Below are positions 1,862 to 54,323 of a DNA stretch of 64,000 nt, piece by piece. A model generated the notes under the pieces. The model was not told where the DNA came from. It saw only the letters and a list, made by a program, of their open reading frames with translations, and did no database searches. Source of the DNA: Balanoglossus misakiensis (lineage: Eukaryota; Animalia; Hemichordata). The position numbers and the translations under genes were made by a program. Position 1 is the first letter of the stretch; every line of letters begins with the position of its first letter. The stretch is from the NCBI GenBank assembly GCA_040954595.2, contig CM082578.2:1098831-1162830 (forward strand). Reading direction: 5' to 3'.

Positions 1862-2273
1862 CTGGAGTGACTAGCAATTTTTGCAAATTGTACTATTAAT
1901 TGAATTCATAATTTAATAATTAGTTTTTTTCAATGAAATATTCAAATCCATACAACCCAAAGATGGCTCCTTCATTATTTCTATGGAAATTTCACAGTTT
2001 ATTCTTTTCTTTCTGCACACTCGCAAACATCTTGAAAATAATCATAGAAAAATATCGAAATATATTGTACTGTGAACAAAACACTAATTTCCTTGAAAAA
2101 AGTTTAAAAAACGGCTACTTTTCGGAAATTGGAAAATGTTTTCTATACTGTTACAGCTACTTCAATTCGGTTCGTTCCTTCAGGATGTGAGAATAATCGC
2201 CACAGGCACAGTCAACGAGCTTGAACTACTCACAGAAACTTAACCACATGGCGAAGACGAGCTCCCAGACCAC

Positions 2274-3146
2274 TTGAGGGAATTGTCAGAAAAATCAGCA
2301 GCCAATCTGACGGAGAAACAGTCCCATGAAATGAAAGAGCTACTAATCGAGTTCCAGGATGTCTTTGCTGCAAATGAATATGACCTGGGGAACTTCACAG
2401 CCCTTGCGCACAGTATCGATACAGGGGACGCGCGACCAGTGAAGCAGAGGATGCGCCGAACCCCACTACGCTTCGCGGGGGAGGAGGAGGCCCACCTCAA
2501 GAAAATGCTGCGGTCAGGGGTAATCCAACCTTCAACATCAGAATGGGCTTCGGCACCAGTATTGGTAAGGAAGAGGGACGGGACAGTCCGCTGGTGCGTC
2601 GACTATCAGTCGCTGAACAATGTGATCGGAAAAGACGTATTCCCCTTGCCGCTGATAGAGGACTGCATGGACACGCTGGCCGGGAACGAGTGGTTCTCGA
2701 AACTAGATGCCAATTCAGCGTACTGGCAAATACAAGTGGACAAAGAGGACCGCAAGAAGACTGCCTTTACCACAAAGTACGGGCTGTATGAATTCGCCCG
2801 TATGCCCTTCGCCCTGTGCAACACCACTGCCACATACTCGCGAGCCATGAATCTGGTGCTGCGTGGGCTGACATGGGAGGTAGTACTAGCATTTTTAGAC
2901 GACATCATGGTACTTGGGGCGGACTTTGCAAACCATCTCCAGAATCTGCGAGACGTGTTCACCCGGATCCGGGAATACAGGTTGAAACTACGCCCCCGCA
3001 AGTGTGAACTGTTTCAGACAGAGGTGGAGTTCCTGGGGCGGATTGTCCGCAAAGGAACCATAGGACTGGACCCGCGTTCCGTTGACGTGGTACGCAACTG
3101 GCCGACACCAAAAAACACCAAGGAGGTGGAACTTTTCGCAGGGTAA
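2274..3146 (+). pseudogene. pol: Gypsy reverse transcriptase (frameshifted at 3' end)
   Basis: SEWASAPVLVRKRDGTVRWCVDY, FSKLDANSAYWQI, KTAFTTKYGLYEFARMPF, AFLDDI, KCELFQTEVEFLG. Confidence 0.95.
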
Positions 3147-3177
3147 GCCAATTAACACCGCTCGTTTATAAAGGATC

Positions 3178-3783
3178 ATGCCAAGTTGGCCGCCCGCTGT
3201 ACGCAGTTACGGAAAAAAGCCTTTCAAGTGGGGCGGAGAGCAACGGCTGGCCTTCGAGGCGCTAAAAGATTGCTTAACATCGGCGCCGGTACTCACGTTA
3301 CCGAACCCAAAAGACCTGTTCACATTGGACACGGACGCATCGGACATTGCCGTGGGAGCGGAACTTCTCCAGGTGCAGGATGGAGAAGAACGAGTGAGCG
3401 CATACGCCAGCTTCGCATTAACACCCGAACAAACAAGGTACTGCACGACCCGAAAAGAACTCCTAGCAGTAGTACGATTTACCCGGTTATTCCGACACTA
3501 CTTGCTGGGGAACCATTTCATAAAACGGACGGACCACAGCAGTCTGGCCTGGCTGCTGAGGTTTAAAGCGCCCCAAGGACAATTGGCCCGGTGGTTGGAA
3601 GAACTTAGCCAGTACAACATGACGGTTCAGCATAGGCCGGGGAACAAACACCTCAACGCGGATGCCCTATCCAGAATTGAACCGCAGGGACACTACCGCC
3701 ACAGCGTTACGCCGGACGAACTTCCCTGCGGCGGATGTGACTATTGCCAACGAGAAATTGGGGAGACTTCGTCACCGGGGTAG
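3178..3783 (+). pseudogene. pol: Gypsy RT connection/RNase H domain
   Basis: FTLDTDASDIAVGAELLQ, YCTTRKELLAVV, RTDHSSLAWL, QLARWLEEL, HRPGNKHLNADALSR. Confidence 0.95.
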
Positions 3784-4022
3784 ACGAAGTAATACCGTTA
3801 GCCTCACAACCATCCAATGACATTAGGCAAGACGTCTGCACGGTAAACTTAGGCAGCGAAGAAGACGAAGCGAGTGACCACCTCGCAGACCCCCCAGAGG
3901 ACCCAGGAGAAGGATTCGATTTCGACGAAATACTAAAGTCAATCGGAATAGACTCCATGGGAGAGGACACCTCCTTCAGTGAAGGTACACAGGCGGAATA
4001 GGAGGACCCCAAGGTATGCACG

Positions 4023-5513
4023 GTGACCAGGAGCAGCTCGCCAGAGACCGACACGCCGTGGCGAGAAACCTCGGAAACGATACACCGGCAACATCAGGAG
4101 GATGCCGATCTACGGCCGATACTGGAATGGCTGGATACTGGTCAACCCCCCGCGGAAAGCGCATTGGAACTACTCAGCACCGCCGCAAAACATGCCTGGA
4201 TAAACCGCGAGATATATTATGTGGACCCGAAGATGCCAGTACTCCGGAGGAAATCCGAGGACGGGGGCGAAGGAAAACTGGTCATCCCCAGAACAATGAT
4301 ATCGGAAGTAATTGAACTGAACCATGCGATACCCTCAGCGGGACATCAGGGCGTGCAACGGACGCTGGCCAGACTCCAAATGAAGTACCACTGGCATCGG
4401 ATGGCAGATGATGTACGCAGCTACGTAGCCTCGTGCCACGACTGCAACAAGCACAAGAAACCACAGCGACATGCGAGGTGCCCTCTGACCCGATACCACG
4501 TGGGATCACCTATGGAAAGGGTACATCTGGACTTCCTTGGACCACTGCCCCGGACACCCCGAAAAAACGAATATATCCTAGTCATGGTCGACCAATTCAC
4601 CAAGTGGGTAGAGTGCATTCCACTGCCTACCCAAACGGCAGAGGCAACCGCTAAGGCAGCTGTAGGGGAATTCTTTTCTCGATTCGGATGGCCATTCGAG
4701 ATATTCACAGATAGAGGCAGTAATTTCGAAAGTCAGCTGTTCCGCGAACAGCCAGATGGAGCGGCAAAACCGGACCCTCATGGATGCAAACAGAACGAGT
4801 GGGACAAATTCGTACCCCAAATCGCCGGAGCCATTCGGACCTCCGTAAACAGAAATACTGGATTCACACCTAATCGCCTTATGCTGGGGCGGGAAGTGAA
4901 CCAACCGGCCGACCTGGTCTTCGGGAAACCAACGCCAGCCCAAGACCATGAAGAATATGTGAGCAGCCTGGGGAGCGCCATCAAAGAAGCCCATGACCTC
5001 GCTCAGGAAAAACTGCAGGTCACCCAGGAAAGAATGAAGCGGGACTACGACTTGAAGGCCCGACTCCGTTCATATGAAGTCGGAGATCCCGTCTACCTTC
5101 TGGACTCAGTGACGGTGAGATGGAAATGTAAAAAACTGAGCCCCCCATGGAAAGGACCAGGAATAGTGATAGCGAAATTATCGCCATATTTGTACCGAGT
5201 GAAACTTCCGAGACGCATCGCCACCGCGAACCACGACAGAATAAGGTTGTGTAGGGAAGCGCAACTGCCCAGCTGGATAGTTAAATTCAAGAGGTCACTG
5301 CCCCTAAAGGGTGGGGATCCTGATCCGCAGGACAAAAACCGGGAACAGACCTACTGTATCTGCCGTGGGCCGGACACAGAGAAGCTGATGGTCCAGTGTG
5401 ACAGCTGTTACGACTGGTTCCACAGCACATGCGTCAATCTCACCCAAAAGCAGGTCAACTCGACTGATCCCTTCCACTGTCCGAACTGCGAGGGGGAGGG
5501 GATCGACGATTAA
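4023..5513 (+). pseudogene. pol: Gypsy integrase (HHCC, partial DDE core, GPY/F-like region) with C-terminal PHD finger
   Basis: H..AGHQG..CHDC zinc finger, VHLDFLGPLP, FTDRGSNFES, PWKGP. The segment normally carrying the catalytic E appears deleted near FREQ|PDG. C-terminus TYCICRGPDTEKLMVQCDSCYDWFHSTCV...FHCPNC is a C4HC3 PHD. Confidence 0.93.
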
Positions 5514-5577
5514 GGGAACACAGGGAAAAGGGGAAAATGCCATCGGGTAGGGCTATGACTCGTCACAGGCGAGGACC

Positions 5578-5617
5578 CACTAACCGTTAATTTTCTTTTT
5601 TTTCTTTTTGTCCCCAG
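5578..5617 (+). promoter_or_regulatory. Putative splice acceptor upstream of the Gypsy extra ORF
   Basis: CACTAAC branch-point consensus (5578-5584), long polypyrimidine tract, CCCCAG ending at 5617, ATG at 5619. Confidence 0.65.
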
Positions 5618-5618
5618 A

Positions 5619-7063
5619 ATGGATTCCAGACAACTCGAATTAGAGGAGATATGCTATCGCTGCGGCCGAGGGAAACTGTTGGACCCCATCAGTGTCATCC
5701 CCCGACTGAGGCAACTTGGTGTAGACGAGGATACAATGTTCCTGATGCTCCGTGAGAACTGTCAAGTAGCCACGGTTCTAGGCGACATAGGATGGATGTC
5801 CACGGTACGGGAGGAGGCCATACATGTATACGGGAAGGAAAAGACCGAAGCCAACCTGCCCGTACCATCCGACGCAGCCATAAAAACCTGCACACTACCT
5901 CGGGAGTTCAATCCAGGCCGCGTACGTGGGGGATTCGTTGGCCATATCTCCCCGCAAGAGCCCACAAGAACCACCACCGCAGCTGACGACCTGGAGGAAA
6001 CTTTGAGCATCTTCCGGGATCCGCAGCTGGAAAAACAGGTACTCGGTGGCGACAAGGACCAGGCGATGGAGGTGTCGGAAGGGCCAGACCCACCCCGCAC
6101 CCGTGTATCACCCCCAATAGCAGTAGCGAGAGACGGGGGAAACCAACGGCTGCTGCAGGAGCCATCACCCCCACGCCAAGAAACGCTGCCGCTGCAGTCA
6201 CTGATCAACCCATTGGAGCTGGAAGCGACGTTGGAGGCGGGGGAATATCTAATCCCCTGGGAACTTCGACGCCACCCCGGCAGCCCTACTAGGTCCAGAT
6301 CCCCAACCCGGTCGCCGCGAACGGAGCGTTCTCGAGAGGAAAGGCGGGACCGCCCACCTTCCCGTGAACGATTATCCTTTTCACGCTGGGGAGATCTCAG
6401 CCCCAGACGTCGATCACCGATCCGGTATCCGACGCTGGAACCGCCCAAAGAAGACGAACGCCGCTGGAGGAGCGCCAGGCCGGCCCGAAGGAGCCCCCTA
6501 TCCTCTGTTCCACATTACTCATCAGGCCCTTCTCCATGTCCGTTCCCGGGATGCCGGAGGTCCACGCGCAAACTGAAGAAACACGCCTTTCAGTGCCACC
6601 TTCCAGTTATTTTTACTGAGAAGCCGGAAGTATTCCGCGAGCGGGACGCGGTGGAGGAGTTAGAGAAACTCACCTATACTGGCTGTGTGGTCCAGGAAAT
6701 GAAATACCCGACCTGCTAGACTTCTTTATCCGCAGGGGCGGACCTGGACGGATCCCTACGGAATCCTTTTGTTCACCGGAGTCCATGGTGATGATGAAGC
6801 GCCTGTGCGTCTTCCAGGGGTGGGAGGTGCCGAACAGGTTCCGACTGAGCTCCCCCACCACACCAGCGATTCTCATCCACTGGCGTGTCCTTAGCATACT
6901 GCTGAGGTGGGTATCCCAATCACGACAGGAAGAATTCCGGGAAATCCGACCTCACCGGAGAACATCATCAATCCGGACACAGCAACCAGAGAGGACGGGG
7001 GCGGAAGCAGTCGCACAGAATCCATCGACGCAGGGGGAGCGAGGACGCGCCAGGGGTTTTTGA
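5619..7063 (+). pseudogene. Extra ORF of the Gypsy element (RS/P-rich, C2H2-like zinc finger), broken into 5619..6719 and 6785..7063
   Basis: 366-aa ORF with an RSP-rich tract and CPFPGCRRSTRKLKKHAFQCH, continued in another frame by GWEVPNRFRLSSPTTPAILIHWRVL; same GC-rich composition as pol. Confidence 0.7.
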
Positions 7064-18346: not shown

Positions 18347-20534
18347 ATGTTTCCATTCATGACGAACTCCAATGCAGGCGTCGCAGTCATTCTGGCTTTC
18401 ACGCTGTGGGCACCTCTGGTGACAGCAATTCCCAACAAGTTGCGGGTAAGTAATCACACAACCTATATGAGTGAAAGTTTCTTGTCATTTTCGCAACGTC
18501 AAGGTTGATATTCTCTTCTTGGATCGAAAATGTGTGACACAACAAATGAATCTGCGTGGCAGGGTCGGCTGTGTCTTTTGCTTCGAGGCATAGTCGTCAG
18601 ACACACATCCCTAACACGCGAAGCCAGCTTATCCTTTGATCAAATGGCAGCGCTATTCTAAATATTTTACAGCATGCCGTAAAGGACAAACACGTGCCGC
18701 TGGAAGAGGCCAACACTCAGCAGAGACGGCAAGATGTTAACGGAGGTGAGCCCCAACAATAAATTAATATTGTTCCTTTTATTTAGAAAACGCCGCATAA
18801 TTAGCCAACCAATCATGGTTATGAGAAACCTCCAAAATACAATGTATCGATATTTACTGCATCTTTTCATACTTCGCCCGCGCTTTAAAAACCCTATAGC
18901 TGCTAAAATTGGCATATTTTTTTCCAGAGTAAAATACTTCATATGTATATTCCCTATTCCCTAAAATCTTCACCCGTGACCATTAAGCCATATTACTTGC
19001 ATTTGCATTGGTTTGTCATCACTTGGCGTCGCATTTCACGATAGCTGCTTAGCTGCTATTGTTTGTATGAAGGCTGATTAAATCGGTGAGGCACCGTTTT
19101 AATACATAGCATGTTCCAATTGCAACATGCAGTCACAATCGGGCATCGATAAGATGTTTATGTATACCTATCAGTAAGCTTATTTTGATGAACCAATTTA
19201 AGTTGGAAAATAAAATCATGAAAATAATGCAAAAAGTGGCAGCTTTGGAGGCTTTAAACTACAGTTCTCCCAAATTGTCTTGACTAAATGACATACATGT
19301 GGTCAAAAGTTCTGACTGCAGAAGAGGTTGCAGCTGTGGCGGGGGACTGTTCAATTGGAGGAAATATATTTACATGGAATACAGACAATATTGAAATGGC
19401 AGCAGAAATAGTTCCTACTGAAAAGAATGCTATCTGCAGTGAGTATCACGACTTTAAAATGAAAGATTTTGCAAATTAAAAAAAAATATTGAGTGTTTTG
19501 ACATGCGTCAGTGGTCAGTAACACACAAGCTGCATGATAAGAGGGTCACGAGAAATTGTAAGCCGCAATGTATAATGGATTAACTCCATGACCTATGCGA
19601 CCTACGAACTGTGACGTACAGAATTTATTTCTACGTGTAATGCGGTCTGCGGCAGTGAGCCACAGACCGCATTGCGAGAGCAGTGAGAATTCACCACAAT
19701 GCAAACTTTCTGAACGTAGGTTGATCTTCGAATGAAATATTACCTTGTCACCAGTTTTCCACATGGCTACAGTGTAAAATTGGGTGACGTGTTCGTTCAC
19801 AAGTGGAATAATTGTGAGTAGTAAAGCACGCGAAGTTAAGCAACGAGCACGTTTTGAAATGCGCGCAGATGATCCCAGTTTCAGGCCATTGCGTGCATGC
19901 AAAAAAAATAATACTGTACCGGGGGTGAGCCTACTTTCTTTCCATACAGATACACGTATATGTTGGTTAAGGTATGTGACAAACAGTTTTCATGTAACAG
20001 CCAGTGATGCTGACCATAAAACCAGCGCAGCTGATGCTTTCATCTACAATTTGCAACATGGACGTTTGTGTCTCTGCATGTGTCGTGCATGTTACTGCTG
20101 AACAAAAAAGATATGCGGGCACCACAGGCTGGCGAAAGCGGTGCTCACGTGCTCTGCAAGCTGATGTTGTCACTAAATTGGCAAAGTATTGTACACATGG
20201 AGGAGTTTCTTGAGCTGTATGTTGTATAAATGTCGGTTGTGAGTACATTATTTTTTATTTTTTTTAATAATTTTCAAAGCCTCTGTGATTGAAGCATATT
20301 ATTACGACTCATCCGTTCATCATTCATTCATTCATTCATTCATTCATTCATTCATTCATTCATTCATTCATTCATTCATTCATTCATCCATTCAGTCAGT
20401 CAGTCAGTCACTGTACCAATTGAAGACGCCCTTGTATAGGAGAATTTAGCTATGTACTGACTGTCTTTTCATTTTTTCTTCATCCTATAGAATCTACCGA
20501 CCTGGTCGCTGTCAATAACAATTCAACTCCTTAA
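18347..20534 (+). pseudogene. Remnant of a secreted pentraxin-domain gene
   Basis: TATAAAAG at ~18288; signal-peptide exon MTNSNAGVAVILAFTLWAPLVTAIPNKLR|GTAAGT (to 18445); pentraxin C-terminal motif YMWSKVLTAEEVAAVAGDCSIGGNIFTWN (~19288-19438, donor GTGAGT); short terminal exon 20491-20534; AATAAA at ~20804. Most of the pentraxin domain is missing. Confidence 0.6.
20316..20410. repeat. (TTCA)n/(GTCA)n microsatellite
   Basis: Direct reading. Confidence 0.95.
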
Positions 20535-22325
20535 ACATCCTGTGAGTGTGAAGTCTATGAACACTGGCCATGCATTTCAATTCAAGGACAAAATGAATGC
20601 GCAATATTTCGTTTTATCGAGAGTAATGTGCAGTGATTAAATTTGCTAGGGCTCTCTTAGCAGATTTGGAGTTAGTCATTTTGGTAGAAACTTTTCGAGA
20701 TGGGAAATCTTTGGTCATCTAACCAAGTTATTTGTATTTTTGTTATATAAGACAGAGTCATTTCTATATCATAGATGCAAGTTTAATTTATAACATGAAT
20801 TTGAATAAAATATTTTTTTTAAATATCACCACATGAATTTGAATAAAATATTTTTTTTAAATATCACCAGATTGAAATCTTTGGAAGTCTGCACTTAGAG
20901 GGATGGCATGGCAGTTTTCCACTGTTCATATTACAAAGAATTTGGCGTCACGTGTTGATTTCATGAGTGTTCGAGTGTTGCTCTTCCCAGCCTCGTACCC
21001 ACAATCCTCTGATACTTACACTTACGTCAGTTCTATAGCCGCCGACCCACTAGATTCTCCTTATGAATTGCCCAAATTATTTTTTGGTGTAGTTTTGATA
21101 GTTGGTGCACGGAAACTTTTGATCGATTCACGAAATTCAAAATATGTTACATCACAAACCTCATAAAATGGAGGCTAGAGTAGCCTGTTTGTTTTCAGGT
21201 AATTTTACAATTACCTCAATTACCTTTTTTCGAGGGAGGGGGTTAAGAAAACATACAGATTGAAATAACAAGGAAGTGGTATATCAAACCGAAACCTTAT
21301 CTCAATCGTGATTCTAGAGTGTTTCCATGTCATGTGACATCCACAAAAATGTGGTATAATCTTGAAAAGAGTCCCGATTTCCCAAACTGGTTTTGCGAAT
21401 GTACTTCACTTTGGAGCAATGCATGAGTACATTCGTAGAAAGATATTGCTCCACTATTTACTGACACTCCTCTTGTACTGCAAATATTACTGCATTCTGT
21501 CAGGGCAAGACAAAAGACACAGCAGAACTGCCAGAATTAAAACAGACAACTGGCAATTTCAATAAAACATGTAATAACAAATATATGTAACATTGAATGA
21601 GGTGTCCATACAGCTTGGTCATTTAAAGACCTCCAGTCATTGTGACAATGCATAAATATTTATGTACACCCACAAGCGTTTTAGCCATAGCGGCAGGCCC
21701 TACTTAGTTGGAGGAAATAAATAACAAAGCAACAGCCATTTTCTTCACGTTCCATTGCGTGATATGGCGAGACTTTGCAAGATCAACATGTGCGCGCCCA
21801 TGCGAATGCATGGCCATCGGTGAAAAACATCACTGAATATAGCCGTTTCCGATATTTTTGCGAGTTCGTACTCGAGAAATATGCTTTTTTATCGCATAAA
21901 CTGTAATTTTTTGGAGTTTATATGGATCTTGCCGCGTGATTTGGAAGACATTTGGATCATGACGCAGGTACGTTTGCAATCGACATGTAAACAATGGCGA
22001 GTGAACAGCATCGAATCCCGTTTTTGTGAACTGTAATTTACAGCTAAGATAACATCGAAAATCGAATTATATTTTAATCAAACCGATTTTTATGTGTTCG
22101 TTGTCGAATATTTTGTGTTTTGAGTGTGATGATTTTGTCGGGGTGTTTTTTCCTTGCTTTGGGTTTTTTTTTTTTTGAACGGCATATGTTGTGTGGTTCG
22201 ATGCTTCGATGACCCCTTAAGCTGACCGTGCCCATGGTTACTGTATTGTTTACGTGTACACTGGCGCCAAATTTGATCGAACTACGTTGTCGTCTGCACA
22301 TTTGTCGGGTGCTGCAGCCAGTACG

Positions 22326-25300
22326 ATGACCGGGCGGAAATCTCTCGAGTTCCACAATAACATATTGCTGAATAGATGTCGGATTTGCAGCCGTAAATTT
22401 GCAGAGAAGCCATTTCTGTGCGCAAATATTGGAGACGCTTTAGGTGAATGTTTTGGAATAGATATTTCAACGGATGACCCTGGCATTCACCCAACCCATT
22501 TCTGTAGTAACTGCAAGCGGCTTATAACATCTATTACAAAGGCAAAAGAAACAGGTAAACAGTACAATCATGGGGTACAGTTAACTGGTTGGAAAAAAAC
22601 ATCCGAGAATTGGTGAATGCAGTGTGTGTACTCTTTGCAAAAGTGAACGAAAGCGGAAAGCAGCAAAAAACCGGGGAAGACCTCCAATGACACAAACCAA
22701 AAAACTTGATGGAGACCAAGGACATATACAATCAGAAAACAGTATCCTTGCTGTACAGCAGAAAGCTGGCAAGAAGCTAAGGTCTGCATTAAACTTGTCA
22801 AGGTCACGCTTTTCCTCTGCGAGTCAAGATTTTGAATGTCCAGTTTGCCGAGATGTTGTTGACGAGCCAGTTCAACTTCTGTGTAGTGGGCCCCATGTTT
22901 TTTGTTCTACTTGTTTATGTAAGTGGTTTGAAGAATCAACCACATGCCCCATCTGTCGCCTACGTATTATGCCAGGTGATATTGTCATTGTCCCATTAGT
23001 ATTGTCAAATATGCTGTCGTCTCTAAATATTGTGTGTGACATTGCAAATGCTGGTTGTTCAGAAGTTGTGCCACTACAAGACCTTTGCTCTCACACAAAT
23101 CAATGTGCCTTCAAAACTATCGCCAAGGAACATAATTATGCCTCACCATGCCCCTTCAACATGCGTGTCAACAAGGGACAGGTCAGTATTGATAATCCCA
23201 GTCCCCAACAATCACAAATAAATGAAGAGATTGGCAAACCTGAAGTAACCCCTGTTCAAGCCGCTAAAACGTTACTGCAGACATCAGCCGATATCCACAC
23301 TCTGCCAATGTTTGAACAACTCGCCACAACTATTGTCAAGAAGAAGCTGGAATTTGAATCAAGTGGTTTAATTAAATTCAAAACAGGTGGTCAAGTGAGT
23401 ATACTTCTTCCTTTATTCTTGTCTTAAAAATAATTCACCCTTGAGTATTTACTTTTGATTTGACTAGGGGGAACAATTATTGATTTTGTTAGTTATAACC
23501 GTACTGCTACATCAGTGTAATATAACTTAAATTGATGCGTAGACGATACTTGTAGAAACTTAAGATATTTTTTGTACTTGCAGCCAATTATGCTGTCCAA
23601 AATTCGGAAGCCAAGAAAGGAAAGTTCTGAGTGTTCAAAGCAAACTCTGGTCTTAAGATCAAAATGCTTATCTGAAGTGAGGCACCAAGTAAGCGGTGGT
23701 GGTAAATCAGCACACATTCAGACAGGAAATGAAATCCAAAGGATGAAGAAGGAGGAAAAAGAATCCCTGCTATCTTCTCTCGGCCTCAGTCCAGATATTC
23801 CACCTGGTGCTGGACTTCTCTTAAAGAGTGATGTTGGGGTCACCTGGTCAACCATGCGGAAAATAAGAAGGTAAGTTGTTAGGGCCCAAGCGCACACGTC
23901 CTTGTTATGTCATGAGATAATACACCCGATAGAAAATTCTGTTTCTTCTCATTCATACTGTGCATATATAATTCGAGATCAGCGCTTGGGCCCGACAATG
24001 CTGCTTGCAGCTTTAATTTCTATCTGTTCTTTATGCAATAATTGTCATGTTTTATTGATGTTTTAACAACAATATGATATATACCTATTAGCAATTACAA
24101 TAGCTGTCTGAGATATTCTGCATGATTAACTAAAAATTATCACATTTTATTATAATCTCTATGCTTAAAGAATGAGGTTTTATGTTGTTAAATTTCAAAC
24201 TTCTTAAACTGTCACCTAGCTGTGCTACATTAATCACTTAGGTCACTGATTGTAGGTTTCATCAAATATGAAGTTTCATTTCAAATGCGGATGGCTAAGA
24301 ATGTGGAATATTCGACTTGAAGGAGAAAACAAAGACCGTGAGAGAATGAAGTCACTTGAGATTCAGCTCCAAATGAAGAACCTACCCTTCACATTTACAG
24401 TAAATGGTACGGGTAGTGGTAAACTTAGTGAAATACGGCTGGCACCATGTGTAGCTGTATCTAATCTTGTTGAAACAGTAATAGGTAGACTTGATACCCT
24501 AGACAGGTAAGATTTGTTTTGTTTTACTGCTATTGACTTTATAGATAGTTGATTGTGTGTTTCATAACTGGCTGGCTTTGTACAATAGCAGCTTGCCTTT
24601 TAAGACTTGTATTTCTATCTCCTTATCACTGTGGTGAGTTTTCACAAATTTTTCTTGTTGAATAGGAAAACATGCATTAGCACACCTTAATTTTTTTTTT
24701 CATTGTAATATGTAAGGTCACATGTATCGCCTGGAGGTACATCCTTGGTAAAGCTGCATGGTTTTGATTTAAGGGTTGAGCCAGTTTTTCTCTCTTTAGA
24801 CTACAGAAACTGACCTGGCATGATGGTCTTATTCCATCTTCTGAAGTCTGGGTAAAGGTTGGAGGTGACCATGGTGGTGGTTCCATGAAATGGGCATTTG
24901 AGATAATGAATGTGGATCACCTCAACAGCATCAACAACACTGTGTGTTGGAGTGTTTTTGAAGCTCCGGATAAATTGACCAACCTAAACACTGCCATGAA
25001 GTTAAACAGTGGGCAAGTTGACTCACTAAATGGTCTAAGGTGGAAGTAAGCATTAATCATAGTACATGTATCTCTGTTAGCAAAAAGAGAGAGACTGACA
25101 CAACAGACAAATGGAACTGAAGGAAGACAGACACAAAGAGACTGAAATTAAAATAGAACACAATTGGATACACTGACAAACAGATCAAAGTGAAACAAAG
25201 AGACGGGGGCAGAAAGAAAAGCCTGGGATGTAAAATGAGGGGACAGACAGATAGAAAATAAGGTAGAAAGGTAACATTGATACTCATTTGTTTTTATGTA

Positions 25301-27754
25301 TTTATTTTTTGTCCACAGAGATGCACAAGTTCTTGTTTGGCTTGCAGGTGACTATGAATTTCTGGTGAAGATGTATGGATTGTCTGGTCCAAGTGGTATG
25401 TGCTGCATGCTGATTCTTTTGATTGTAACATGTTTCTAAATATTTGCATGTCATTTTTTTTAATAGAATGTGTCGGCAGTCTTTTTTCCTTGTTTCATCA
25501 ACAGGACGATACTTTGCCTGTGGTGTCTGACCACAAAAGAGCAAGCAAAGCTACCACCAGAAGAGCGGCCGGATATTCCACCAAGAACACTAGAGTCAAT
25601 CAGAGATGCACACAATAATTTTGTCAGTGCAGGGAAGGTCCTTACTCAAGCTAAAGAGTATTACAATTGCGTCAGGGATCAAATGTTTAGAATTCCACTG
25701 TGTAGGGTATGTTCTTCATAGATGTATCAATTTAATTTTTCTCTATCTTCATTTCAGATAAAAACAAGAAGTCATAATTAATGTGTTATGCTTAATTTCT
25801 CTCATAGGTTTCGATTCCAGTTTTGCACATCTCCCTGGGCATATTTCAGAGGCTCTTTCGTCTCCTGCAGAATTCTTGTCATCTACTTGATGCCGAAATC
25901 TTCACTCGTTTAGTGGGGGCGGGGGAGGAAATAGATGTGCCAGTCATGAAACCTGCCCACTTTGATGAATATGTCAGTCACATTTCGAAGATATCTCACC
26001 TCAATTCAGAGATTAATGAAATACATGTTGAGTATGATTTACTGACATCCCACATTGAAGCTGCCTTCACTGATACTAGTGATGATGATAGTGATGATGA
26101 GGACTGGCCACCAACACTTGGACAAGTAAAACATATGGAACGTAAAAGAAAGAAACTCTCTGATATTGCAGACAAAAAGGTGAATGCATTATCATATTTG
26201 GTACTGATTTATAAAAAAAAATGTGATTTGTCTTCTTTTCAGGTATAACATGACTAATTTTTCATTTGAATGTAATCATTGGGTGTGTTTAACTTTTAGG
26301 CTGCAGAAATTGTAATATTGCAGAAAAAGCTTCCCCATCAAGCTGGATACTTGCATAGGGGACTTGAAGTAGCACTTGCTTCTATCAATGTCTATTTGCA
26401 AGCCTACCATAGTCAGTCATTCATAGGCAATCATGTAAACCGATGCTGCAAGGTCTGTGTAAGAATAATTGTTATGGTTACTTAATTGCCATGCATGAAG
26501 TTGTTGAAGTTTGTTTGCCCTAATTGTGTAATAAATTGTACTGAAAGTTTATATATAGCCAAGTTCCCTTGGACATTTTATCTTTATTTTTCATTTTTCT
26601 GTTAGTTTTTTTTTATTTTTAGGTTGGATGTTTAACAATATTTTTCTAGTTGGTGAGTAACCGAAGGTTGAATTAATAAATACATTAATCAAATTTTAAT
26701 TCACAGAACATTTATAACATTCTTTGATTTTAGTTAAATGTAAGTGTTTAGTATTTGATATAGTTAATCAGTTACAGTCTTGAAATACAGGCTTAATTCA
26801 TAGTGAAAAAAACAAACATTATACTTGCCCTGTAAATGAAAAGATTAATGATTGGACTGCCTATTTTTCAGCCACAAAATGTGAATCTACTATGCAACAG
26901 TGTTGTAAATGTGACTGAGCAGGTATGCCCAGAGTTGCTCCCAAAAGCCCGGAAAATAGTACACAAACACCAACCACTGTTCACGGAGTTTGCAAACTGC
27001 CACAACAAGTATTCCCACAGCAGAAAATTGACACACATTGAAATTGAAGAATTGGGTAAGTACAGCATGCATGCAGGCACCCCCACCCCCTCTTCCACTT
27101 GCACACAGCAAGCAGGGAATAAGTCAGTCACCAAACTTGAGCCCACTGTCAAGTGTGAATCTCCCGGTATCAGGTGTGAACAAAAGTCAAGGTTCACCAA
27201 CATGTATATATAGCTTGCGTAAAGTTACAATAAATCAGACTTGAATTTGGTATCAACACCACGCGCATCTCATCTCACTTCCCGGCCATTCGCCCCTCTC
27301 CACCACCCATACCTTTCCCAAAGTGTATGCCGTACAATACATAATGCTTATCATTTATGGCACATCACTATTGTAACATTGAATAACTAAATTATAACTT
27401 TGAAGTAAAAAATATTGACATTTCCAAATATAATTTATTTCAGATACTGCCGTATCCAGGTTCATGAACCTGTATAGGACACATTTTCCAGAGGAAAGTG
27501 TGTTTCCAAAATTGCACATGCTTGAGTGTCACATAATGGAGAAGATCAGATTATTTAAACGAGGGCTAGGGTTCTTCGGCGAGCAGGGGATAGAGTCAAT
27601 CCACCACGCCTTTAACCAGGCTTCAGTGAGCTATGCGTGTATGCCTGGTGACCGCCTGAACAAACTTGAGCAACTAGTGAAAGACCACCATATTAGGACT
27701 AGCCCGACACATACAAAACCTGAAATCAAGTCAAGAGGCCCCTATAAAAAGTAA
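22326..27754 (+). pseudogene. RAG1-like/Chapaev transposase, 10 exons, three apparent lesions
   Basis: Exons: 22326-23394, 23584-23870, 24291-24506, 24800-25045, 25319-25395, 25505-25706, 25808-26179, 26300-26452, 26872-27055, 27444-27754. Motifs: H-x7-CRIC...D-x4-H-x4-CxxC...W..H..CxxC; RING CPVC..C..HVFCSTC..CPIC; ZFA-like C..C..H...C; TGGQP..RKPRK; KVGGDHGGGSMK; LAGDYEFLVKMYGLSG; CLWC; LHISLG; QAYHSQSFIGNH; PKLHML; GFFGEQGIESIH. Confidence 0.92.
23876..23998. repeat. Small inverted-repeat element in transposase intron 2
   Basis: TTGTTAGGGCCCAAGCGC ... GCGCTTGGGCCCGACAA. Confidence 0.7.
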
Positions 27755-29344
27755 ATGTAAATGCGAATGTAAATAGATCACAATGCAAGATTTAAAGTAT
27801 TTTTGTGATTGTTACCATGCCAATTTTGTACATATATATTTGATGTGTAAAATGTTAATAATAAAAACTCTTTAACCTGCATATTGCCTCTTGTGTGAAT
27901 AATTGTGTGACTTTCAGATAATGTACCAAGTACTTGAAAATTTAGCGAGTAACTAGACTGAATGTACATGTTCCCCTCACTACTAGCCAACCTGTACCCG
28001 CCTTTACAACCAGAACAATGGTGTGTTAAGTTTGTGAACATAATAAAAGCAAACATTCAGGCCAGGTACGTGGTGATTGTAAATGATTGGCTTCAAATGG
28101 TCATTTTTATTCACTGTAAGATCAAAATAGAAATACAAATAATATAGTGTTCGATTACAGTGAAATTCATCGGTAGTCTATACATGAAAGTGCATTTTAA
28201 GTGATGTTTAAATCATGCAAACAAGGCGCATATAATGCCCTCCCCATTACAGGGAATGCGCACAAAGATAGTTGTTGAGGGCGCACTTACATAAATGGCG
28301 GCCATTTTGAATCTAACTAAGTTACTATGGGGCAAACGCTTGTGCACCATGTTAAAAATTAGTTCAGGCATACCTTATACATGTATGTTTTTGACTGACC
28401 ATATCCTCAGCACGCCCTTTTTTTTCAAAAAGACTATCATTATTCTCTGCCAGGTAGAGAGTTGCCGCTTTCTTGTTAACAATAATATACTATTATAACA
28501 TTGCATAGATTCCAGTTGGTTTCTGTCCATATCTCACAAACTGTGGTGTGCATACTGTTGAAATGACCTCAAGAAGAAAATGCCAAATGGAAAAATATTT
28601 GACATACTAACCTATATGATAATGTTATACAGTACATTATATTTAACGGTTCCAATCCAATGTTGAGAACTAAGAAAACAATTTGAGCAGAATTCATTTA
28701 AAATTAATTGCAGTTCCGTTTCACCGCATTTCATAGGATGCTGGCTAAAATTCATAGTATGGTGGATTACCTGTTATGCATTTCTTTCCCTATTTCGTCT
28801 GGCAGATTTGAGTTTGACAAGCTGTCATTTTCCTTTCAGCTCCGCAAAATTGATGGATTTACTTTGACAGCACACAGACTGTCCATTTGTCATCGGAGAT
28901 ACAAGCAGCATCAGGTGCTGAACAGCTTGCAGCAGTGTTGGAAAAGAGTACACCACACTAACTTGCAAGAGTGCTTTGGCCCTTTCTTCACACTGTCCGA
29001 AACTTGTTGTGTTACATCATTGCTTAATGAATAAGAAATACACAGGTATTTAGCGTTCCATTCAATACCTACAATAGATAAAAGGGTGTCGGTCTGTATG
29101 CGACAATCTTCAATGTTCTTATGAGCACAAGGCTTTATTCAGGGAACGTTTTACAGTAAGAATTATATGATATAAACTGAATAAGTTTGTTGTCTGTCAA
29201 CTCTTCTGTCTTTGTCTTACCGATACGGTTCTAACCGCGAACACTGAGGCTTCTCTGCTCGTACACAGTATAAATCAATGGATGATAAAATGCGCCCTCT
29301 TTTGGTGAACTCTTCCTACCGCCCGACTTTCTACCTTACATTAA

Positions 29345-30139
29345 GATGGGTCCCTAGGATCTTTTTGCTCGTTGCTATGGGCCTTTATAGGACACTACAC
29401 TCAATTTTGATCGAAACCGTTATGAACGTCCGACAAGGGGCTTGTAACTAGTTAAAAATACGCACGATTGTGTGCACACCCCCTGTCCGAGTATGGTTAC
29501 GGCAGCTACCGCCCGGCCATAGGCCGCCACGCTAATACGGCAAAGCAGCGGTCAGCGATAGCGTGCGCGTCCTGTAACCACAGTAACTGGATCGAACGCT
29601 AAAAATCCAATGTTTTGTACACAGAGATTTTGTACTGTTCACGAAAATCCCTAAGGCTTTTTTCATAGGCCACGTACGCCAGCCAAATTTGACCTGCTTG
29701 TTGAGAACGCACTTCCGCATAGTGTGACGGATCGTTTTTTCGGTTTTCGTCGTGCTAAGAAGCGATACCGGTGGAAGAGTGCGTCCAAAAAAACCCAAAA
29801 TCGATGACTTTTTCAGGTGTGGTACGGGTATGCTGAAATCGTAGGATACAACGATAATATTTGAAAACAAAATCCGTCACGATCTTCCCTGGTTCAAGCA
29901 ACTAATGAATACGCATCAAGTTCGTTTTTGAGGTCACGGAATAAAAAGCCTTAGGCTTTTGAAATTTGACCTAGCTAATTTGCATATCAATGGCGTCAGG
30001 GGGCGCGCGCTCACAATCGTGCAGATTTTCAACTAGTTACCAGCCCCTTGTTAGACTCTGAAAACGGCTTAGTCCAAATCGGGGTGTAATGTCCTATAAA
30101 GGCCCATAGCAACGGGCAAAAAGATCCCAGGGACCCATC
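29345..30139. mobile_element. TTAA-specific non-autonomous DNA transposon (Kolobok-like)
   Basis: ~130-bp imperfect TIRs starting GATGGGTCCCT; TTAA at 29341-29344 and 30140-30143. Confidence 0.85.
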
Positions 30140-30384
30140 TTAAGGCATGTAGGGCGGTCAGGTAGATGGCAGTGTATTGCAAGCGTCTCTTGCATATTTT
30201 TTTCCGCCAGGAATGGCATACATTCGTTTTTGGCGACACCACAACTGCTGGAACTTCTCGAAAAATTGAGAGCCGGATTTCATAAATGCTCATGTTTTCC
30301 GAAGGGCTGAAAGAAGATCCAGAGTGGAATATTTAAATTTGCCTGTGGCAGACATCATAGTGGCTGCCAGTTATTATATTTCTT

Positions 30385-30540
30385 GTGCAAGAGATAGTAT
30401 CTTGTTCCAGCGAGATGTTTTCTCGTGTGCACGAGAAACATGCTATCTCGTGCATATCTCGTGCGCACGAGAAAATTGCGAGCGCACTCGTGTTCACGAG
30501 AAAATATCACATGCACACGTAAGTCGTGCGCACGAGATAA
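30385..30540. repeat. Cluster of TCTCGTGCGCACGAGA-type short palindromes
   Basis: Several degenerate CTCGTG.GCACGAG units in tandem. Confidence 0.7.
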
Positions 30541-41665: not shown

Positions 41666-44600
41666 TAGCTCTGCATGGCCTGGTTAATCAATGTTGACGC
41701 AAAGGTTGACCCCACCAAACACTCAAAATTGATGGGCACGACACTGGCCACTAGCTCTGCATGGCCTGGTTAATCGATGTTGACGCAAAGGTTGACCCCA
41801 CCAAACACTCAAAATTGATGGGCACGACACTGGCCACTAGCTCTGCATGGCCTGGTTAATCGATGTTGACGCAAAGGTTGACCCCACCAAACACTCAAAA
41901 TTGATGGGCACGACACTGGCCACTAGCTCTGCATGGCCTGGTTAATCGATGTTGACGCAAAGGTTGACCCCACCAAACACTCAAAATTGATGGGCACGAC
42001 ACTGGCCACTAGCTCTGCATGGCCTGGTTAATCGATGTTGACGCAAAGGTTGACCCCACCAAACACTCAAAATTGATGGGCACGACACTGGCCACTAGCT
42101 CTGCATGGCCTGGTTAATCGATGTTGACGCAAAGGTTGACCCCACCAAACACTCAAAATTGATGGGCACGACACTGGCCACTAGCTCTGCATGGCCTGGT
42201 TAATCGATGTTGACGCAAAGGTTGACCCCACCAAACACTCAAAATTGATGAGCACGACACTGGCCACTAGCTCTGCATGGCCTGGTTAATCAATGTCTAC
42301 GCAAAGGCTGACCCCACCAAACACTCAAAATTGATGGGCACGACACTGGCCACTAGCTCTGCATGGCCTGGTTAATCAATGTCTACGCAAAGGCTGACCC
42401 CACCAAACACTCAAAATTGATGGGCACGACACTGGCCACTAGCTCTGCATGGCCTGGTTAATCAATGTCGACGCAAAGGCTGACCCCACCAAACACTCAA
42501 AATTGATGGGCACGACACTGGCCACTAGCTCTGCATGGCCTGGTTAATCAATGTCGACGCAAAGGCTGACCCCACCAAACACTCAAAATTGATGGGCACG
42601 ACACTGGCCACTAGCTCTGCATGGCCTGGTTAATCGATGTTGACGCAAAGGCTGACCCCACCAAACACTCAAAATTGATGGGCACGACACTGGCCACTAG
42701 CTCTGCATGGCCTGGTTAATCGATGTTGACGCAAAGGCTGACCCCACCAAACACTCAAAATTGATGGGCACGACACTGGCCACTAGCTCTGCATGGCCTG
42801 GTTAATCGATGTTGACGCAAAGGCTGACCCCACCAAACACTCAAAATTGATGGGCACGACACTGGCCACTAGCTCTGCATGGCCTGGTTAATCGATGTTG
42901 ACGCAAAGGCTGACCCCACCAAACACTCAAAATTGATGGGCACGACACTGGCCACTAGCTCTGCATGGCCTGGTTAATCAATGTTGACGCAAAGGCTGAC
43001 CCCACCAAACACTCAAAATTGATGGGCACGACACTGGCCACTAGCTCTGCATGGCCTGGTTAATCAATGTTGACGCAAAGGCTGACCCCACCAAACACTC
43101 AAAATTGATGGGCACGACACTGGCCACTAGCTCTGCATGGCCTGGTTAATCAATGTTGACGCAAAGGCTGACCCCACCAAACACTCAAAATTGATGGGCA
43201 CGACACTGGCCACTAGCTCTGCATGGCCTGGTTAATCAATGTTGACGCAAAGGCTGACCCCACCAAACACTCAAAATTGATGGGCACGACACTGGCCACT
43301 AGCTCTGCATGGCCTGGTTAATCAATGTTGACGCAAAGGCTGACCCCACCAAACACTCAAAATTGATGGGCACGACACTGGCCACTAGCTCTGCATGGCC
43401 TGGTTAATCGATGTTGACGCAAAGGCTGACCCCACCAAACACTCAAAATTGATGGGCACGACACTGGCCACTAGCTCTGCATGGCCTGGTTAATCGATGT
43501 TGACGCAAAGGCTGACCCCACCAAACACTCAAAATTGATGGGCACGACACTGGCCACTAGCTCTGCATGGCCTGGTTAATCGATGTTGACGCAAAGGCTG
43601 ACCCCACCAAACACTCAAAATTGATGGGCACGACACTGGCCACTAGCTCTGCATGGCCTGGTTAATCGATGTTGACGCAAAGGCTGACCCCACCAAACAC
43701 TCAAAATTGATGGGCACGACACTGGCCACTAGCTCTGCATGGCCTGGTTAATCAATGTTGACGCAAAGGCTGACCCCACCAAACACTCAAAATTGATGGG
43801 CACGACACTGGCCACTAGCTCTGCATGGCCTGGTTAATCAATGTTGACGCAAAGGCTGACCCCACCAAACACTCAAAATTGATGGGCACGACACTGGCCA
43901 CTAGCTCTGCATGGCCTGGTTAATCAATGTTGACGCAAAGGCTGACCCCACCAAACACTCAAAATTGATGGGCACGACACTGGCCACTAGCTCTGCATGG
44001 CCTGGTTAATCAATGTTGACGCAAAGGCTGACCCCACCAAACACTCAAAATTGATGGGCACGACACTGGCCACTAGCTCTGCATGGCCTGGTTAATCAAT
44101 GTTGACGCAAAGGCTGACCCCACCAAACACTCAAAATTGATGGGCACGACACTGGCCACTAGCTCTGCATGGCCTGGTTAATCAATGTTGACGCAAAGGC
44201 TGACCCCACCAAACACTCAAAATTGATGGGCACGACACTGGCCACTAGCTCTGCATGGCCTGGTTAATCGATGTTGACGCAAAGGCTGACCCCACCAAAC
44301 ACTCAAAATTGATGGGCACGACACTGGCCACTAGCTCTGCATGGCCTGGTTAATCGATGTTGACGCAAAGGCTGACCCCACCAAACACTCAAAATTGATG
44401 GGCACGACACTGGCCACTAGCTCTGCATGGCCTGGTTAATCGATGTTGACGCAAAGGCTGACCCCACCAAACACTCAAAATTGATGGGCACGACACTGGC
44501 CACTAGCTCTGCATGGCCTGGTTAATCAATGTTGACGCAAAGGCTGACCCCACCAAACACTCAAAATTGATGGGCACGACACTGGCCACTAGCTCTGCAT

Positions 44601-47600
44601 GGCCTGGTTAATCAATGTTGACGCAAAGGCTGACCCCACCAAACACTCAAAATTGATGGGCACGACACTGGCCACTAGCTCTGCATGGCCTGGTTAATCG
44701 ATGTTGACGCAAAGGCTGACCCCACCAAACACTCAAAATTGATGGGCACGACACTGGCCACTAGCTCTGCATGGCCTGGTTAATCGATGTTGACGCAAAG
44801 GCTGACCCCACCAAACACTCAAAATTGATGGGCACGACACTGGCCACTAGCTCTGCATGGCCTGGTTAATCGATGTTGACGCAAAGGCTGACCCCACCAA
44901 ACACTCAAAATTGATGGGCACGACACTGGCCACTAGCTCTGCATGGCCTGGTTAATCGATGTTGACGCAAAGGCTGACCCCACCAAACACTCAAAATTGA
45001 TGGGCACGACACTGGCCACTAGCTCTGCATGGCCTGGTTAATCGATGTTGACGCAAAGGCTGACCCCACCAAACACTCAAAATTGATGGGCACGACACTG
45101 GCCACTAGCTCTGCATGGCCTGGTTAATCGATGTTGACGCAAAGGCTGACCCCACCAAACACTCAAAATTGATGGGCACGACACTGGCCACTAGCTCTGC
45201 ATGGCCTGGTTAATCGATGTTGACGCAAAGGCTGACCCCACCAAACACTCAAAATTGATGGGCACGACACTGGCCACTAGCTCTGCATGGCCTGGTTAAT
45301 CGATGTTGACGCAAAGGCTGACCCCACCAAACACTCAAAATTGATGGGCACGACACTGGCCACTAGCTCTGCATGGCCTGGTTAATCGATGTTGACGCAA
45401 AGGCTGACCCCACCAAACACTCAAAATTGATGGGCACGACACTGGCCACTAGCTCTGCATGGCCTGGTTAATCGATGTTGACGCAAAGGCTGACCCCACC
45501 AAACACTCAAAATTGATGGGCACGACACTGGCCACTAGCTCTTCATGGCCTGGTTAATCGATGTTGACGCAAAGGCTGACCCCACCAAACACTCAAAATT
45601 GATGGGCACGACACTGGCCACTAGCTCTGCATGGCCTGGTTAATCGATGTTGACGCAAAGGCTGACCCCACCAAACACTCAAAATTGATGGGCACGACAC
45701 TGGCCACTAGCTCTGCATGGCCTGGTTAATCGATGTTGACGCAAAGGCTGACCCCACCAAACACTCAAAATTGATGGGCACGACACTGGCCACTAGCTCT
45801 GCATGGCCTGGTTAATCGATGTTGACGCAAAGGCTGACCCCACCAAACACTCAAAATTGATGGGCACGACACTGGCCACTAGCTCTGCATGGCCTGGTTA
45901 ATCGATGTTGACGCAAAGGCTGACCCCACCAAACACTCAAAATTGATGGGCACGACACTGGCCACTAGCTCTGCATGGCCTGGTTAATCGATGTTGACGC
46001 AAAGGCTGACCCCACCAAACACTCAAAATTGATGGGCACGACACTGGCCACTAGCTCTGCATGGCCTGGTTAATCGATGTTGACGCAAAGGCTGACCCCA
46101 CCAAACACTCAAAATTGATGGGCACGACACTGGCCACTAGCTCTGCATGGCCTGGTTAATCGATGTTGACGCAAAGGCTGACCCCACCAAACACTCAAAA
46201 TTGATGGGCACGACACTGGCCACTAGCTCTGCATGGCCTGGTTAATCGATGTTGACGCAAAGGCTGACCCCACCAAACACTCAAAATTGATGGGCACGAC
46301 ACTGGCCACTAGCTCTGCATGGCCTGGTTAATCGATGTTGACGCAAAGGCTGACCCCACCAAACACTCAAAATTGATGGGCACGACACTGGCCACTAGCT
46401 CTGCATGGCCTGGTTAATCGATGTTGACGCAAAGGCTGACCCCACCAAACACTCAAAATTGATGGGCACGACACTGGCCACTAGCTCTGCATGGCCTGGT
46501 TAATCGATGTTGACGCAAAGGCTGACCCCACCAAACACTCAAAATTGATGGGCACGACACTGGCCACTAGCTCTGCATGGCCTGGTTAATCGATGTTGAC
46601 GCAAAGGCTGACCCCACCAAACACTCAAAATTGATGGGCACGACACTGGCCACTAGCTCTGCATGGCCTGGTTAATCGATGTTGACGCAAAGGCTGACCC
46701 CACCAAACACTCAAAATTGATGGGCACGACACTGGCCACTAGCTCTGCATGGCCTGGTTAATCGATGTTGACGCAAAGGCTGACCCCACCAAACACTCAA
46801 AATTGATGGGCACGACACTGGCCACTAGCTCTGCATGGCCTGGTTAATCGATGTTGACGCAAAGGCTGACCCCACCAAACACTCAAAATTGATGGGCACG
46901 ACACTGGCCACTAGCTCTGCATGGCCTGGTTAATCGATGTTGACGCAAAGGCTGACCCCACCAAACACTCAAAATTGATGGGCACGACACTGGCCACTAG
47001 CTCTGCATGGCCTGGTTAATCGATGTTGACGCAAAGGCTGACCCCACCAAACACTCAAAATTGATGGGCACGACACTGGCCACTAGCTCTGCATGGCCTG
47101 GTTAATCGATGTTGACGCAAAGGCTGACCCCACCAAACACTCAAAATTGATGGGCACGACACTGGCCACTAGCTCTGCATGGCCTGGTTAATCAATGTTG
47201 ACGCAAAGGCTGACCCCACCAAACACTCAAAATTGATGGGCACGACACTGGCCACTAGCTCTGCATGGCCTGGTTAATCAATGTTGACGCAAAGGCTGAC
47301 CCCACCAAACACTCAAAATTGATGGGCACGACACTGGCCACTAGCTCTGCATGGCCTGGTTAATCGATGTTGACGCAAAGGCTGACCCCACCAAACACTC
47401 AAAATTGATGGGCACGACACTGGCCACTAGCTCTTCATGGCCTGGTTAATCGATGTTGACGCAAAGGCTGACCCCACCAAACACTCAAAATTGATGGGCA
47501 CGACACTGGCCACTAGCTCTGCATGGCCTGGTTAATCGATGTTGACGCAAAGGCTGACCCCACCAAACACTCAAAATTGATGGGCACGACACTGGCCACT

Positions 47601-53860: not shown

Positions 53861-54323
53861 TGAAGAGAGGCCCTTTGAGTTTTATTGTAGTCTTACGCAT
53901 CCTTTCACATAAGAAGAGTTAGAAGACGTGAGTTGACTGACCGTTATTAACCGCTTTTGATTTGATATTGTTTTCCACCAAGTTTTTGCGTTGTTTTCGA
54001 CATTGTAAATGTGTATTCTTTTGTTGAAGTGATGCCGTGAAGTGTAGTGACGTTTAATAGGTTTTTGAGGAGTTGTTGAAGTTTTTGTGATGACCGCAAG
54101 AGAGACGGTCTGGTGATGAAGTCGTGATGTTTTAATGACCGCAAGGGAGACGGTCTGGCGTATGAAAATGGCCCTTTGAGTTGGCATGTGAGTTCATACG
54201 AGGGACAAGAGAGAAGTCCCAGAGTGTAGTTGAAGTTGAGCGTGATTTTATTGTAGTCTTACGCATTCTTTCACATAATAATTCGTTTCGTGGTTATTTT
54301 TGAACCTGACAGTATGATGAAGT

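What the first reader, a model, noticed from the sequence alone, without database searches (positions are those of the whole stretch)
21671..28344. Complete RAG1-related transposon with RAG1-type N-terminal zinc module, RING and NBD-like region, but no RAG2
Seen: intact CAC...GTG TIRs, a 4-bp CACC TSD, and a 10-exon transposase whose domain order parallels RAG1 (N-terminal zinc module, GRP hook, C3HC4 RING plus ZFA-like finger, GGQP/RKPRK NBD-like stretch, DDE core with CxxC and LH zinc ligands). Only ~590 bp separate the stop codon from the right TIR, so no RAG2L fits. Known: CAC termini, a 4-bp TSD, a RAG1-like N-terminus and short D-D spacing (x69 here, x107 in RAG1) define Chapaev elements rather than Transib/ProtoRAG (5-bp TSD). 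Inference: a well-preserved, intron-rich representative relevant to how RAG1 acquired its non-core N-terminus.
Basis: partly seen in the sequence, partly recalled or inferred. Interest (0 to 1): 0.8.

Follow-up and report, generated by a model that had tools for sequence, protein, structure and literature searches.

The report
Broken Chapaev transposon with unequal ends
This is a recently inserted but broken copy of a known kind of jumping gene related to the antibody-gene recombinase RAG1, and its two ends differ by about one turn of DNA, as do those of some distant relatives, so the short/long end design behind antibody-gene assembly is likely shared with this sister group.

Summary
The element is real: 6,674 bp, CAC…GTG ends, and a 4-bp duplication (CACC) confirmed by empty sites in two studies. 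It is a RING-bearing Chapaev transposon. Its core scores in Pfam DUF1280, the Chapaev transposase family.

It is not intact: it has two frameshifts and a GG in place of a splice-acceptor AG. One frameshift is shared by the main contig in a public run. Its nearest protein among those I fetched is 41% identical.

Both carry an inner ACTTAGT word, at position 32 on the left and 23 on the right. In relatives at most 49% identical in the core, the word sits only at position 22 or 32, one of each in both distinct two-ended relatives that carry it. Read as 7-mer/spacer/9-mer, the spacers are 13-14 and 23, close to the 12/23 signals of V(D)J recombination.

I found no paper describing this for Chapaev. 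The scan noted it before on three other genomes (unreviewed). Whether the enzyme needs one end of each kind is untested.

The parts
21667..21670 (.). Left target-site duplication CACC
   Evidence: sequence; empty site
21671..21690 (+). Left terminal inverted repeat; first 11 bases fit the family pattern CAC-N4-GTTT
21702..21709 (+). Inner end word ACTTAGTT at position 32 of the left end (long end; 7-mer to 9-mer spacer 23)
22326..23394 (+). Exon 1: Chapa/NZD zinc domain (aa 10-101, type I ligand pattern), GRP, RING (about 22837-22956), C-C-H-C finger (about 23035-23106), KTGGQ
22593..22599 (+). A7 run with one extra A: frameshift inside the Chapa domain; the contigs of runs X1 and X2 have one A fewer
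23584..23870 (+). Exon 2: basic helical stretch in the position of the RAG1 nonamer-binding domain, then the start of the core
   Evidence: (fold inconclusive)
24291..24506 (+). Exon 3; its acceptor reads GG (24289-24290) in this copy and AG in runs X1 and X2; an in-frame AG lies at 24298-24299
24800..25045 (+). Exon 4: first catalytic Asp (GGDHG, codon 24867-24869); Pfam DUF1280
25319..25395 (+). Exon 5: second catalytic Asp (GDYEF, codon 25350-25352)
25505..25706 (+). Exon 6: CxxC zinc ligands; the frame is one base short at 25505-25515, also in the X1 contig
25808..26179 (+). Exon 7: LH motif and long helical insertion
26300..26452 (+). Exon 8: YHxxxFIGNH motif
26872..27055 (+). Exon 9
27444..27754 (+). 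Exon 10: H-x4-H zinc ligands, catalytic Glu (GEQGIE, codon 27593-27595), stop; no CCGHC tail
28315..28322 (-). Inner end word ACTTAGTT at position 23 of the right end (short end; spacer 14)
28325..28344 (-). Right terminal inverted repeat
28345..28348 (.). Right target-site duplication CACC

Best explanation
This is a recently inserted, frameshifted copy of a RING-bearing Chapaev cut-and-paste transposon whose two ends carry the same inner word one DNA turn apart, and intact family members likely use a RAG1-like enzyme that reads one short and one long end. Shown: the boundaries, the 4-bp duplication, the three lesions, the domain order, the Chapaev core signature and the two-class position of the inner word. 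Predicted on a relative (P0039): a core with the RAG1/Transib fold. Inferred from that fold: a transposase dimer cuts at the CAC tips with the D-D-E site, probably by the nick-and-hairpin route of RAG and Transib (established for those enzymes, recalled), and inserts with a 4-base stagger. Inferred: the core grips the outer CAC-N4-GTTT, while the basic helical stretch in the NBD position grips the inner ACTTAGT word, which lies on about the same helix face at both spacings. This copy cannot make a full enzyme. Because the core frameshift is also in the main contig of run X1, it may predate the insertion, in which case an intact copy that I did not see moved it in trans.
For: Core: exon 4 scores 43.8 bits in DUF1280 (cut-off 25), as do 5 of 5 long relatives scanned. 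PMC3985635 (passage) equates DUF1280 with Chapaev transposases. D-D spacing is 69 in 49 of 64 fetched relatives where both motifs were found. Duplication: 4 bp here with empty sites, and 4 bp in 2 of 5 two-ended metagenome loci (L019, L030); none showed 5 bp. Fold of P0039 (mean pLDDT 82): RAG1 9jpu Z 27.7, rmsd 3.6, 459 aligned; BbRAG1L 6b40 Z 26.0, rmsd 3.7, 461; HzTransib 6pqx Z 25.1, rmsd 3.4, 407; 13-15% identity. Ends: I noted the word from the window's own two ends before fetching relatives. In 55 gene-flanking arms from 73 loci, exact ACTTAGT occurs 13 times facing inward and 2 times facing outward; 10 of the 13 lie at position 22 or 32 from a CAC. 9 of 27 distinct termini carry it, against a shuffle mean of 0.13 and a maximum of 3 in 2,000 shuffles. 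Without the duplicate L025, the 10 ends fall at 22 (5), 23 (1) and 32 (4). The window, L019 and L024/L025 each have one short and one long end (offsets 9, 10, 10; shuffle fractions 0.006-0.0095). The window has the long end on the left, L019 and L024 on the right.
Against: 18 of 27 termini lack the exact word. A second group has TAATTAAA near positions 28-32 at left ends. Its two two-ended members give no clear offset: L030 shuffle fraction 0.96; L023 offset 11, fraction 0.059. Only three distinct two-ended elements carry the word, and L019 and L024 lie in one clade (support 93), so there are about three independent lineages. Cutting the ends into 7-mer, spacer and 9-mer borrows RSS terms; the conserved tip is really 11 bases and the inner word is not A-rich like the RSS nonamer. 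The RAG1 GGRPR hook (recalled) is not conserved at the aligned place (GGQP here, varied in relatives). Three of five two-ended loci show no duplication, probably because contigs join ends of different copies (inference). I had no named Chapaev, RAG1 or Transib core sequences for a tree.
Confidence: 0.72

Rival explanations
1. Same Chapaev element, and the inner word is a real binding site kept in helical phase, but there is no pairing rule: any two ends would work, as Martin et al. suggest for invertebrate RAGL, which they expect to be relatively insensitive to end asymmetry.
For: Two spacings a turn apart are what simple phasing predicts. PMC7204232 (passage) expects invertebrate RAGL to rely on the outer 15-17 bp. 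Most Transib families have two RSS23-like ends (PMC1131882 passage). Many relatives lack this word.
Against: All three distinct two-ended elements with the word have one end of each class, and the left/right order is swapped between lineages. Three cases are few, however.
Confidence: 0.35
2. The shared word and its offset come from chance or kinship and have no function.
For: Few independent lineages, and weak support on the tree backbone.
Against: The word is kept between elements at most 49% identical in the core while the spacers differ. 13 inward against 2 outward. Five random positions fall into two narrow classes in 0.3% of trials.
Confidence: 0.06
3. It is a RAG2-less RAG1L or Transib lineage close to the ancestor of RAG1, not a Chapaev.
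For: A family profile matches RAG1 residues 101-381 at E 5e-30, and a relative's predicted fold ranks RAG1 first. Duplication length varies inside Transib (bioRxiv 10.64898/2026.08.26.747230 passage), so 4 bp alone does not decide.
Against: A core-only profile of 15 relatives finds no RAG1, RAG1L or Transib chain in the PDB at E up to 10. Structural identity is 13-15% to all three, with similar Z, whereas RAG1L/TransibSU is over 30% identical to the RAG1 core (PMC4411706). The core scores in DUF1280.
Confidence: 0.04

Closest known systems
RING-bearing Chapaev transposons (Chapaev-1/2_BF, -1/2_NV, -4/6/7_HM; PMC4411706 text and suppl. 5; Kapitonov and Jurka 2007 not read)
   Same: CAC…GTG ends, 4-bp duplication, Chapa domain with H…CRxC…HPxxFCxxC…W…H…CxxC, basic GRP linker, RING, further zinc finger, DUF1280 core, single gene.
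   Different: New family: best fetched protein is 41% identical over 900 aa (P0174, Ptychodera flava). It has nine introns and this copy is broken. A bipartite end with a one-turn offset was not found described for Chapaev in my searches.
RAG1 and the 12/23 recombination signal sequences
   Same: Domain order NZD-RING-finger-(NBD position)-core, predicted core fold, CAC tip, two end classes about 10 bp apart (PMC1131882, PMC10462144 passages).
   Different: 13-15% core identity, D-D spacing 69, no RAG2, 4-bp rather than 5-bp duplication, spacers 13-14/23, inner word ACTTAGT rather than the A-rich nonamer, no GGRPR at the aligned place.
RAGL-A of Ptychodera flava (PMC10462144, passages)
   Same: Ends described as heptamer, conserved adjacent block, spacer with a 10-bp asymmetry, nonamer-like word.
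   Different: RAGL-A has RAG2L, a 5-bp duplication, a GRPR/K NBD and a CCGHC tail; none of these is present here.
Transib (Transib5, Transib2_AG and others; HzTransib)
   Same: Single-gene RAG-fold transposase; several families have RSS12-like and RSS23-like ends (PMC1131882 passage).
   Different: Transib lacks the Chapa and RING domains and typically makes 5-bp duplications; its core is not detected by this family's sequence profile.

Membership tests
Chapaev | Termini 5'-CAC…GTG-3' in inverted repeats (PMC4079192) | tested here: met
Chapaev | 3- to 4-bp target-site duplication (PMC4079192; 3-bp TWA marks Chapaev3) | tested here: met
   4 bp with empty sites; 4 bp in L019 and L030
Chapaev | N-terminal Chapa domain; RING in two subgroups (PMC4411706); type I ligand pattern (bioRxiv 10.64898/2026.01.24.700457) | tested here: met
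   compared by eye with suppl. 5
Chapaev | DDE core with C(2)C, LH and H(3-4)H motifs; Pfam DUF1280 | tested here: met
Chapaev | Core groups with named Repbase Chapaev transposases in a tree | not testable with these tools
   No named core sequences obtainable; supplement searches found none. The tree holds unnamed relatives only.
Transib / RAG1L | 5-bp target-site duplication | tested here: not met
   the feature is reported to vary within Transib
Transib / RAG1L | Core recognisably similar in sequence to the RAG1/Transib core | tested here: not met
   No hit with a core profile; 13-15% identity on structural alignment of a relative
RAGL / ProtoRAG | Convergent RAG2L gene inside the ends | tested here: not met
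   590 bp, longest stop-free frame 92 codons
RAG1 | Nonamer-binding domain fold | tested here: inconclusive
   Exon-2 model against RAG1 NBD 3gnb: Z 3.1, rmsd 4.3, 58 of 68 aligned, rank 21, within noise; Foldseek E 4.2
RAG1 | Cleavage requires one short and one long end (12/23 rule) | not testable with these tools
   Needs biochemistry; only the sequence pattern was tested

The most novel reading that the evidence does not exclude
Chapaev transposases obey their own short/long pairing rule without RAG2: a dimeric domain in the NBD position binds the inner word at 13-14 bp on one end and 23 bp on the other. The 12/23 principle would then date from the common ancestor of Chapaev, Transib and RAG, and would have come down together with the Chapa-RING N-terminus, so that Chapaev keeps the full RAG1 ground plan in both protein and DNA ends.
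Probability: 0.3. Interest if true: 0.8.

Novelty: new variant of a known kind. Interest (0 to 1): 0.52.

Why it matters
When and how the 12/23 rule arose is an open question in RAG evolution. Unequal ends are described for some Transib and RAGL elements (PMC1131882, PMC10462144). Finding them in Chapaev, whose core is only 13-15% identical to RAG1, would push the design back to a deeper ancestor or show that this fold arrives at it repeatedly. It also offers single-gene, RAG2-free enzymes with known ends on which a pairing rule can be tested directly.

Tried and rejected
No whole genome is held, so other copies and their duplications could not be collected; no second copy of the ends lies in the window. 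No RNA holder was listed. Read depth over the element was fairly even in X1 and about ten times higher on the flanks; the tool warns that this is no copy number, so I give none. The flank is probably a repeat, which would make the empty sites other copies of that repeat (inference). X1 and X2 are one sample and may be the window's source. I considered an alternative splice that would rescue the frame at exon 6 and rejected it as unlikely. The second Asp to CxxC distance is 19 in 40 of 46 proteins, and 18 of the 20 intron-bearing loci listed allow a phase-1 intron at the same offset, 46, as the window. A weak donor at 25400 would keep the frame but lose the conserved residues. A first protein search with exon 4 found nothing, and a search with exon 1 found only two Ptychodera proteins at 43% and 33%; both are weak evidence on near-identical entries, and Repbase could not be searched. 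The scan of viral contigs found no relative; Rfam found nothing in 20000-30500. The fold of the NBD-like stretch gave no clear match. A dimer prediction for it could not be run because the queue was full. Literature searches: Chapaev+RAG1+transposon, RAG1L+Chapaev, Chapaev+target site duplication, N-RAG-TP, Chapaev+nonamer, RAG+asymmetric TIR terms, Chapaev+subterminal, BacTransib, DUF1280 (83). None of the listings or passages read described unequal Chapaev ends. [quoted passage not shown] 2022 and bioRxiv supplements were not seen and may bear on this.
Full report
Boundaries. The element runs from 21671 to 28344 (6,674 bp). The outer 20 bases match in 17 places, and CACC flanks both sides. 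Laying public contigs showed a joint from 21666 to 28345 with four letters fitting either side in all four runs laid, from two samples in two studies. That is an empty site with a single CACC, so the 4-bp duplication is shown, not guessed. No whole genome is held.

Gene. Ten coding exons give 1,038 residues when read with X at two breaks, with no in-frame stop. There are three lesions. An extra A in the run at 22593-22599 and a GG acceptor at 24289-24290 are absent from the contigs of X1 and X2; they may be private mutations or assembly errors. The third, one base short at 25505-25515, is matched letter for letter by the X1 contig 25481-25716. Relatives fix the frame there: the second Asp to CxxC distance is 19 in 40 of 46 proteins, and 18 of the 20 intron-bearing loci listed allow a phase-1 intron at the window's offset. 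Of nine listed coding differences between the window and X1, six change a residue and three are silent (the list was cut). That fits unselected drift between recent copies.

Protein. The N-terminus scores in Pfam RAG1_imp_bd and RING families, and its best solved match is the RAG1 NZD. The ligand pattern (H10; C18, C21, C60, C63; H92, C98, C101) is that of type I Chapa domains (bioRxiv 10.64898/2026.01.24.700457, passages and section 9) and matches Chapaev-1_BF and -1_NV by eye (PMC4411706 suppl. 5). Exon 4 scores 43.8 bits in DUF1280, which PMC3985635 equates with Chapaev transposases (passage). It retrieves 740 clusters at E up to 0.001. Relatives come from sponges, echinoderms, hemichordates and lancelets, several full-length with the same layout. 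The best of 177 fetched proteins is 41% identical. A full-length family profile matches RAG1 through residues 101-381, and a core-only profile matches no RAG1 or Transib chain. A predicted model of relative P0039 has the RAG fold, with Z 27.7 to RAG1, 26.0 to BbRAG1L and 25.1 to HzTransib at 13-15% identity. The enzyme therefore likely works like RAG1/Transib but is not a member of either group. PMC4411706 (passages, section 5) already describes Chapa + RING + core in two Chapaev subgroups and infers that this layout is ancestral.

Ends. The window's two ends share ACTTAGTT at positions 32 and 23; I noted this before fetching relatives. Among 73 metagenome loci, 55 arms flank a complete gene end. 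In them the exact word occurs 13 times inward and twice outward, and 10 of the 13 sit at position 22 or 32 from a CAC; one more is cut by a contig start and two have no CAC. Dropping L025 as a duplicate of L024 and adding the window leaves 10 ends, at 22 (5), 23 (1) and 32 (4), i.e. spacers of 13-14 or 23 if read as 7-mer, spacer, 9-mer. Of 16 loci with both gene ends, five had paired termini. L019, L024 and L025 have 22 left and 32 right, the reverse of the window. L030 and L023 belong to a group with other inner words and gave no significant offset. L019 and L030 have 4-bp duplications; the other three have none. In a core tree of 69 of 90 rows (those covering at least 120 of 206 columns; no named references), ends with the word fall in three places, and the window is at most 49% identical to any row. 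The pattern is well above chance but rests on about three lineages, and 18 of 27 termini lack the exact word.

Mechanism. Most likely a cut-and-paste transposase dimer cuts at the CAC tips and inserts with a 4-base stagger (inferred from the fold and the duplication). The inner word is likely bound by the basic helical stretch that occupies the NBD position. A model of that stretch is confidently helical, but its match to the RAG1 NBD is within noise. In RAG the NBD dimer pivots to fit unequal ends and enforces the 12/23 rule (PMC10462144 passage). Whether Chapaev enforces such a rule or merely tolerates two phased spacings is untested; I put a true rule at about 0.3.

Novelty. Unequal ends are in print for some Transib families (PMC1131882, passages and section 11) and RAGL-A. 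My searches found no such description for Chapaev, but the Repbase reports and several papers were not readable. Other papers seen as passages only: PMC4079192, PMC12730594, PMC8355894, PMC4455052, PMC7204232, bioRxiv 10.64898/2026.08.26.747230. Three unreviewed notes of this scan report the same feature on other genomes; they are not independent support. Verdict: a real but broken new family member of a known kind, with an apparently undescribed end design. Interest 0.52.

Noticed in passing
window 21300-21666 and 28345-28700: The flanks show about ten times the contig depth of the element in X1 and X2, so the insertion site is probably inside a repeated sequence of unknown kind.
   Followed up: no
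window 23893-24020 and 27147-27310: Two short stretches inside introns 2 and 9 draw very high (intron 2) or raised (intron 9) depth and many loose ends, suggesting small repeats inserted into the element.
   Followed up: no
window 29341-30143: An 803-bp element with 143-bp inverted arms (82.5% alike) beginning TTAAGATGGGTCCC; looks like a non-autonomous DNA transposon, possibly with a TTAA target.
   Followed up: partly
window 41666-49835: Satellite of 95 copies of an 86-bp unit, 99% matches.
   Followed up: no
window 2244-6719: Gypsy-like pol in three frames (RT, RNase H, integrase ending in a PHD-like finger), followed by a further 386-codon frame; motifs judged by eye.
   Followed up: no
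window 51287-53881 (minus strand): Broken LINE-like endonuclease/reverse-transcriptase frames, judged by eye.
   Followed up: no
L030, L026, L033, L043, L045, L037, L039 left ends: A second group of relatives has TAATTAAA-like words near positions 28-32 instead of ACTTAGT; few right ends were available.
   Followed up: partly
L072 right arm: Three tandem copies of a CAC-N4-GTTT terminus spaced 55 bp apart.
   Followed up: no
L024 219 and L025 240 (left flank): The left end abuts CCCTAA-like telomeric repeats.
   Followed up: no
protein P0067: A DUF1280 core followed by C-terminal helix-turn-helix domains of the Tc5/Brinker type; may be a gene-model fusion.
   Followed up: no
same genome, other pieces: Unreviewed scan notes report a separate two-gene RAG1-fold transposon with a 3-bp duplication and a P-type element with a RAG1-like N-terminus.
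   Followed up: no
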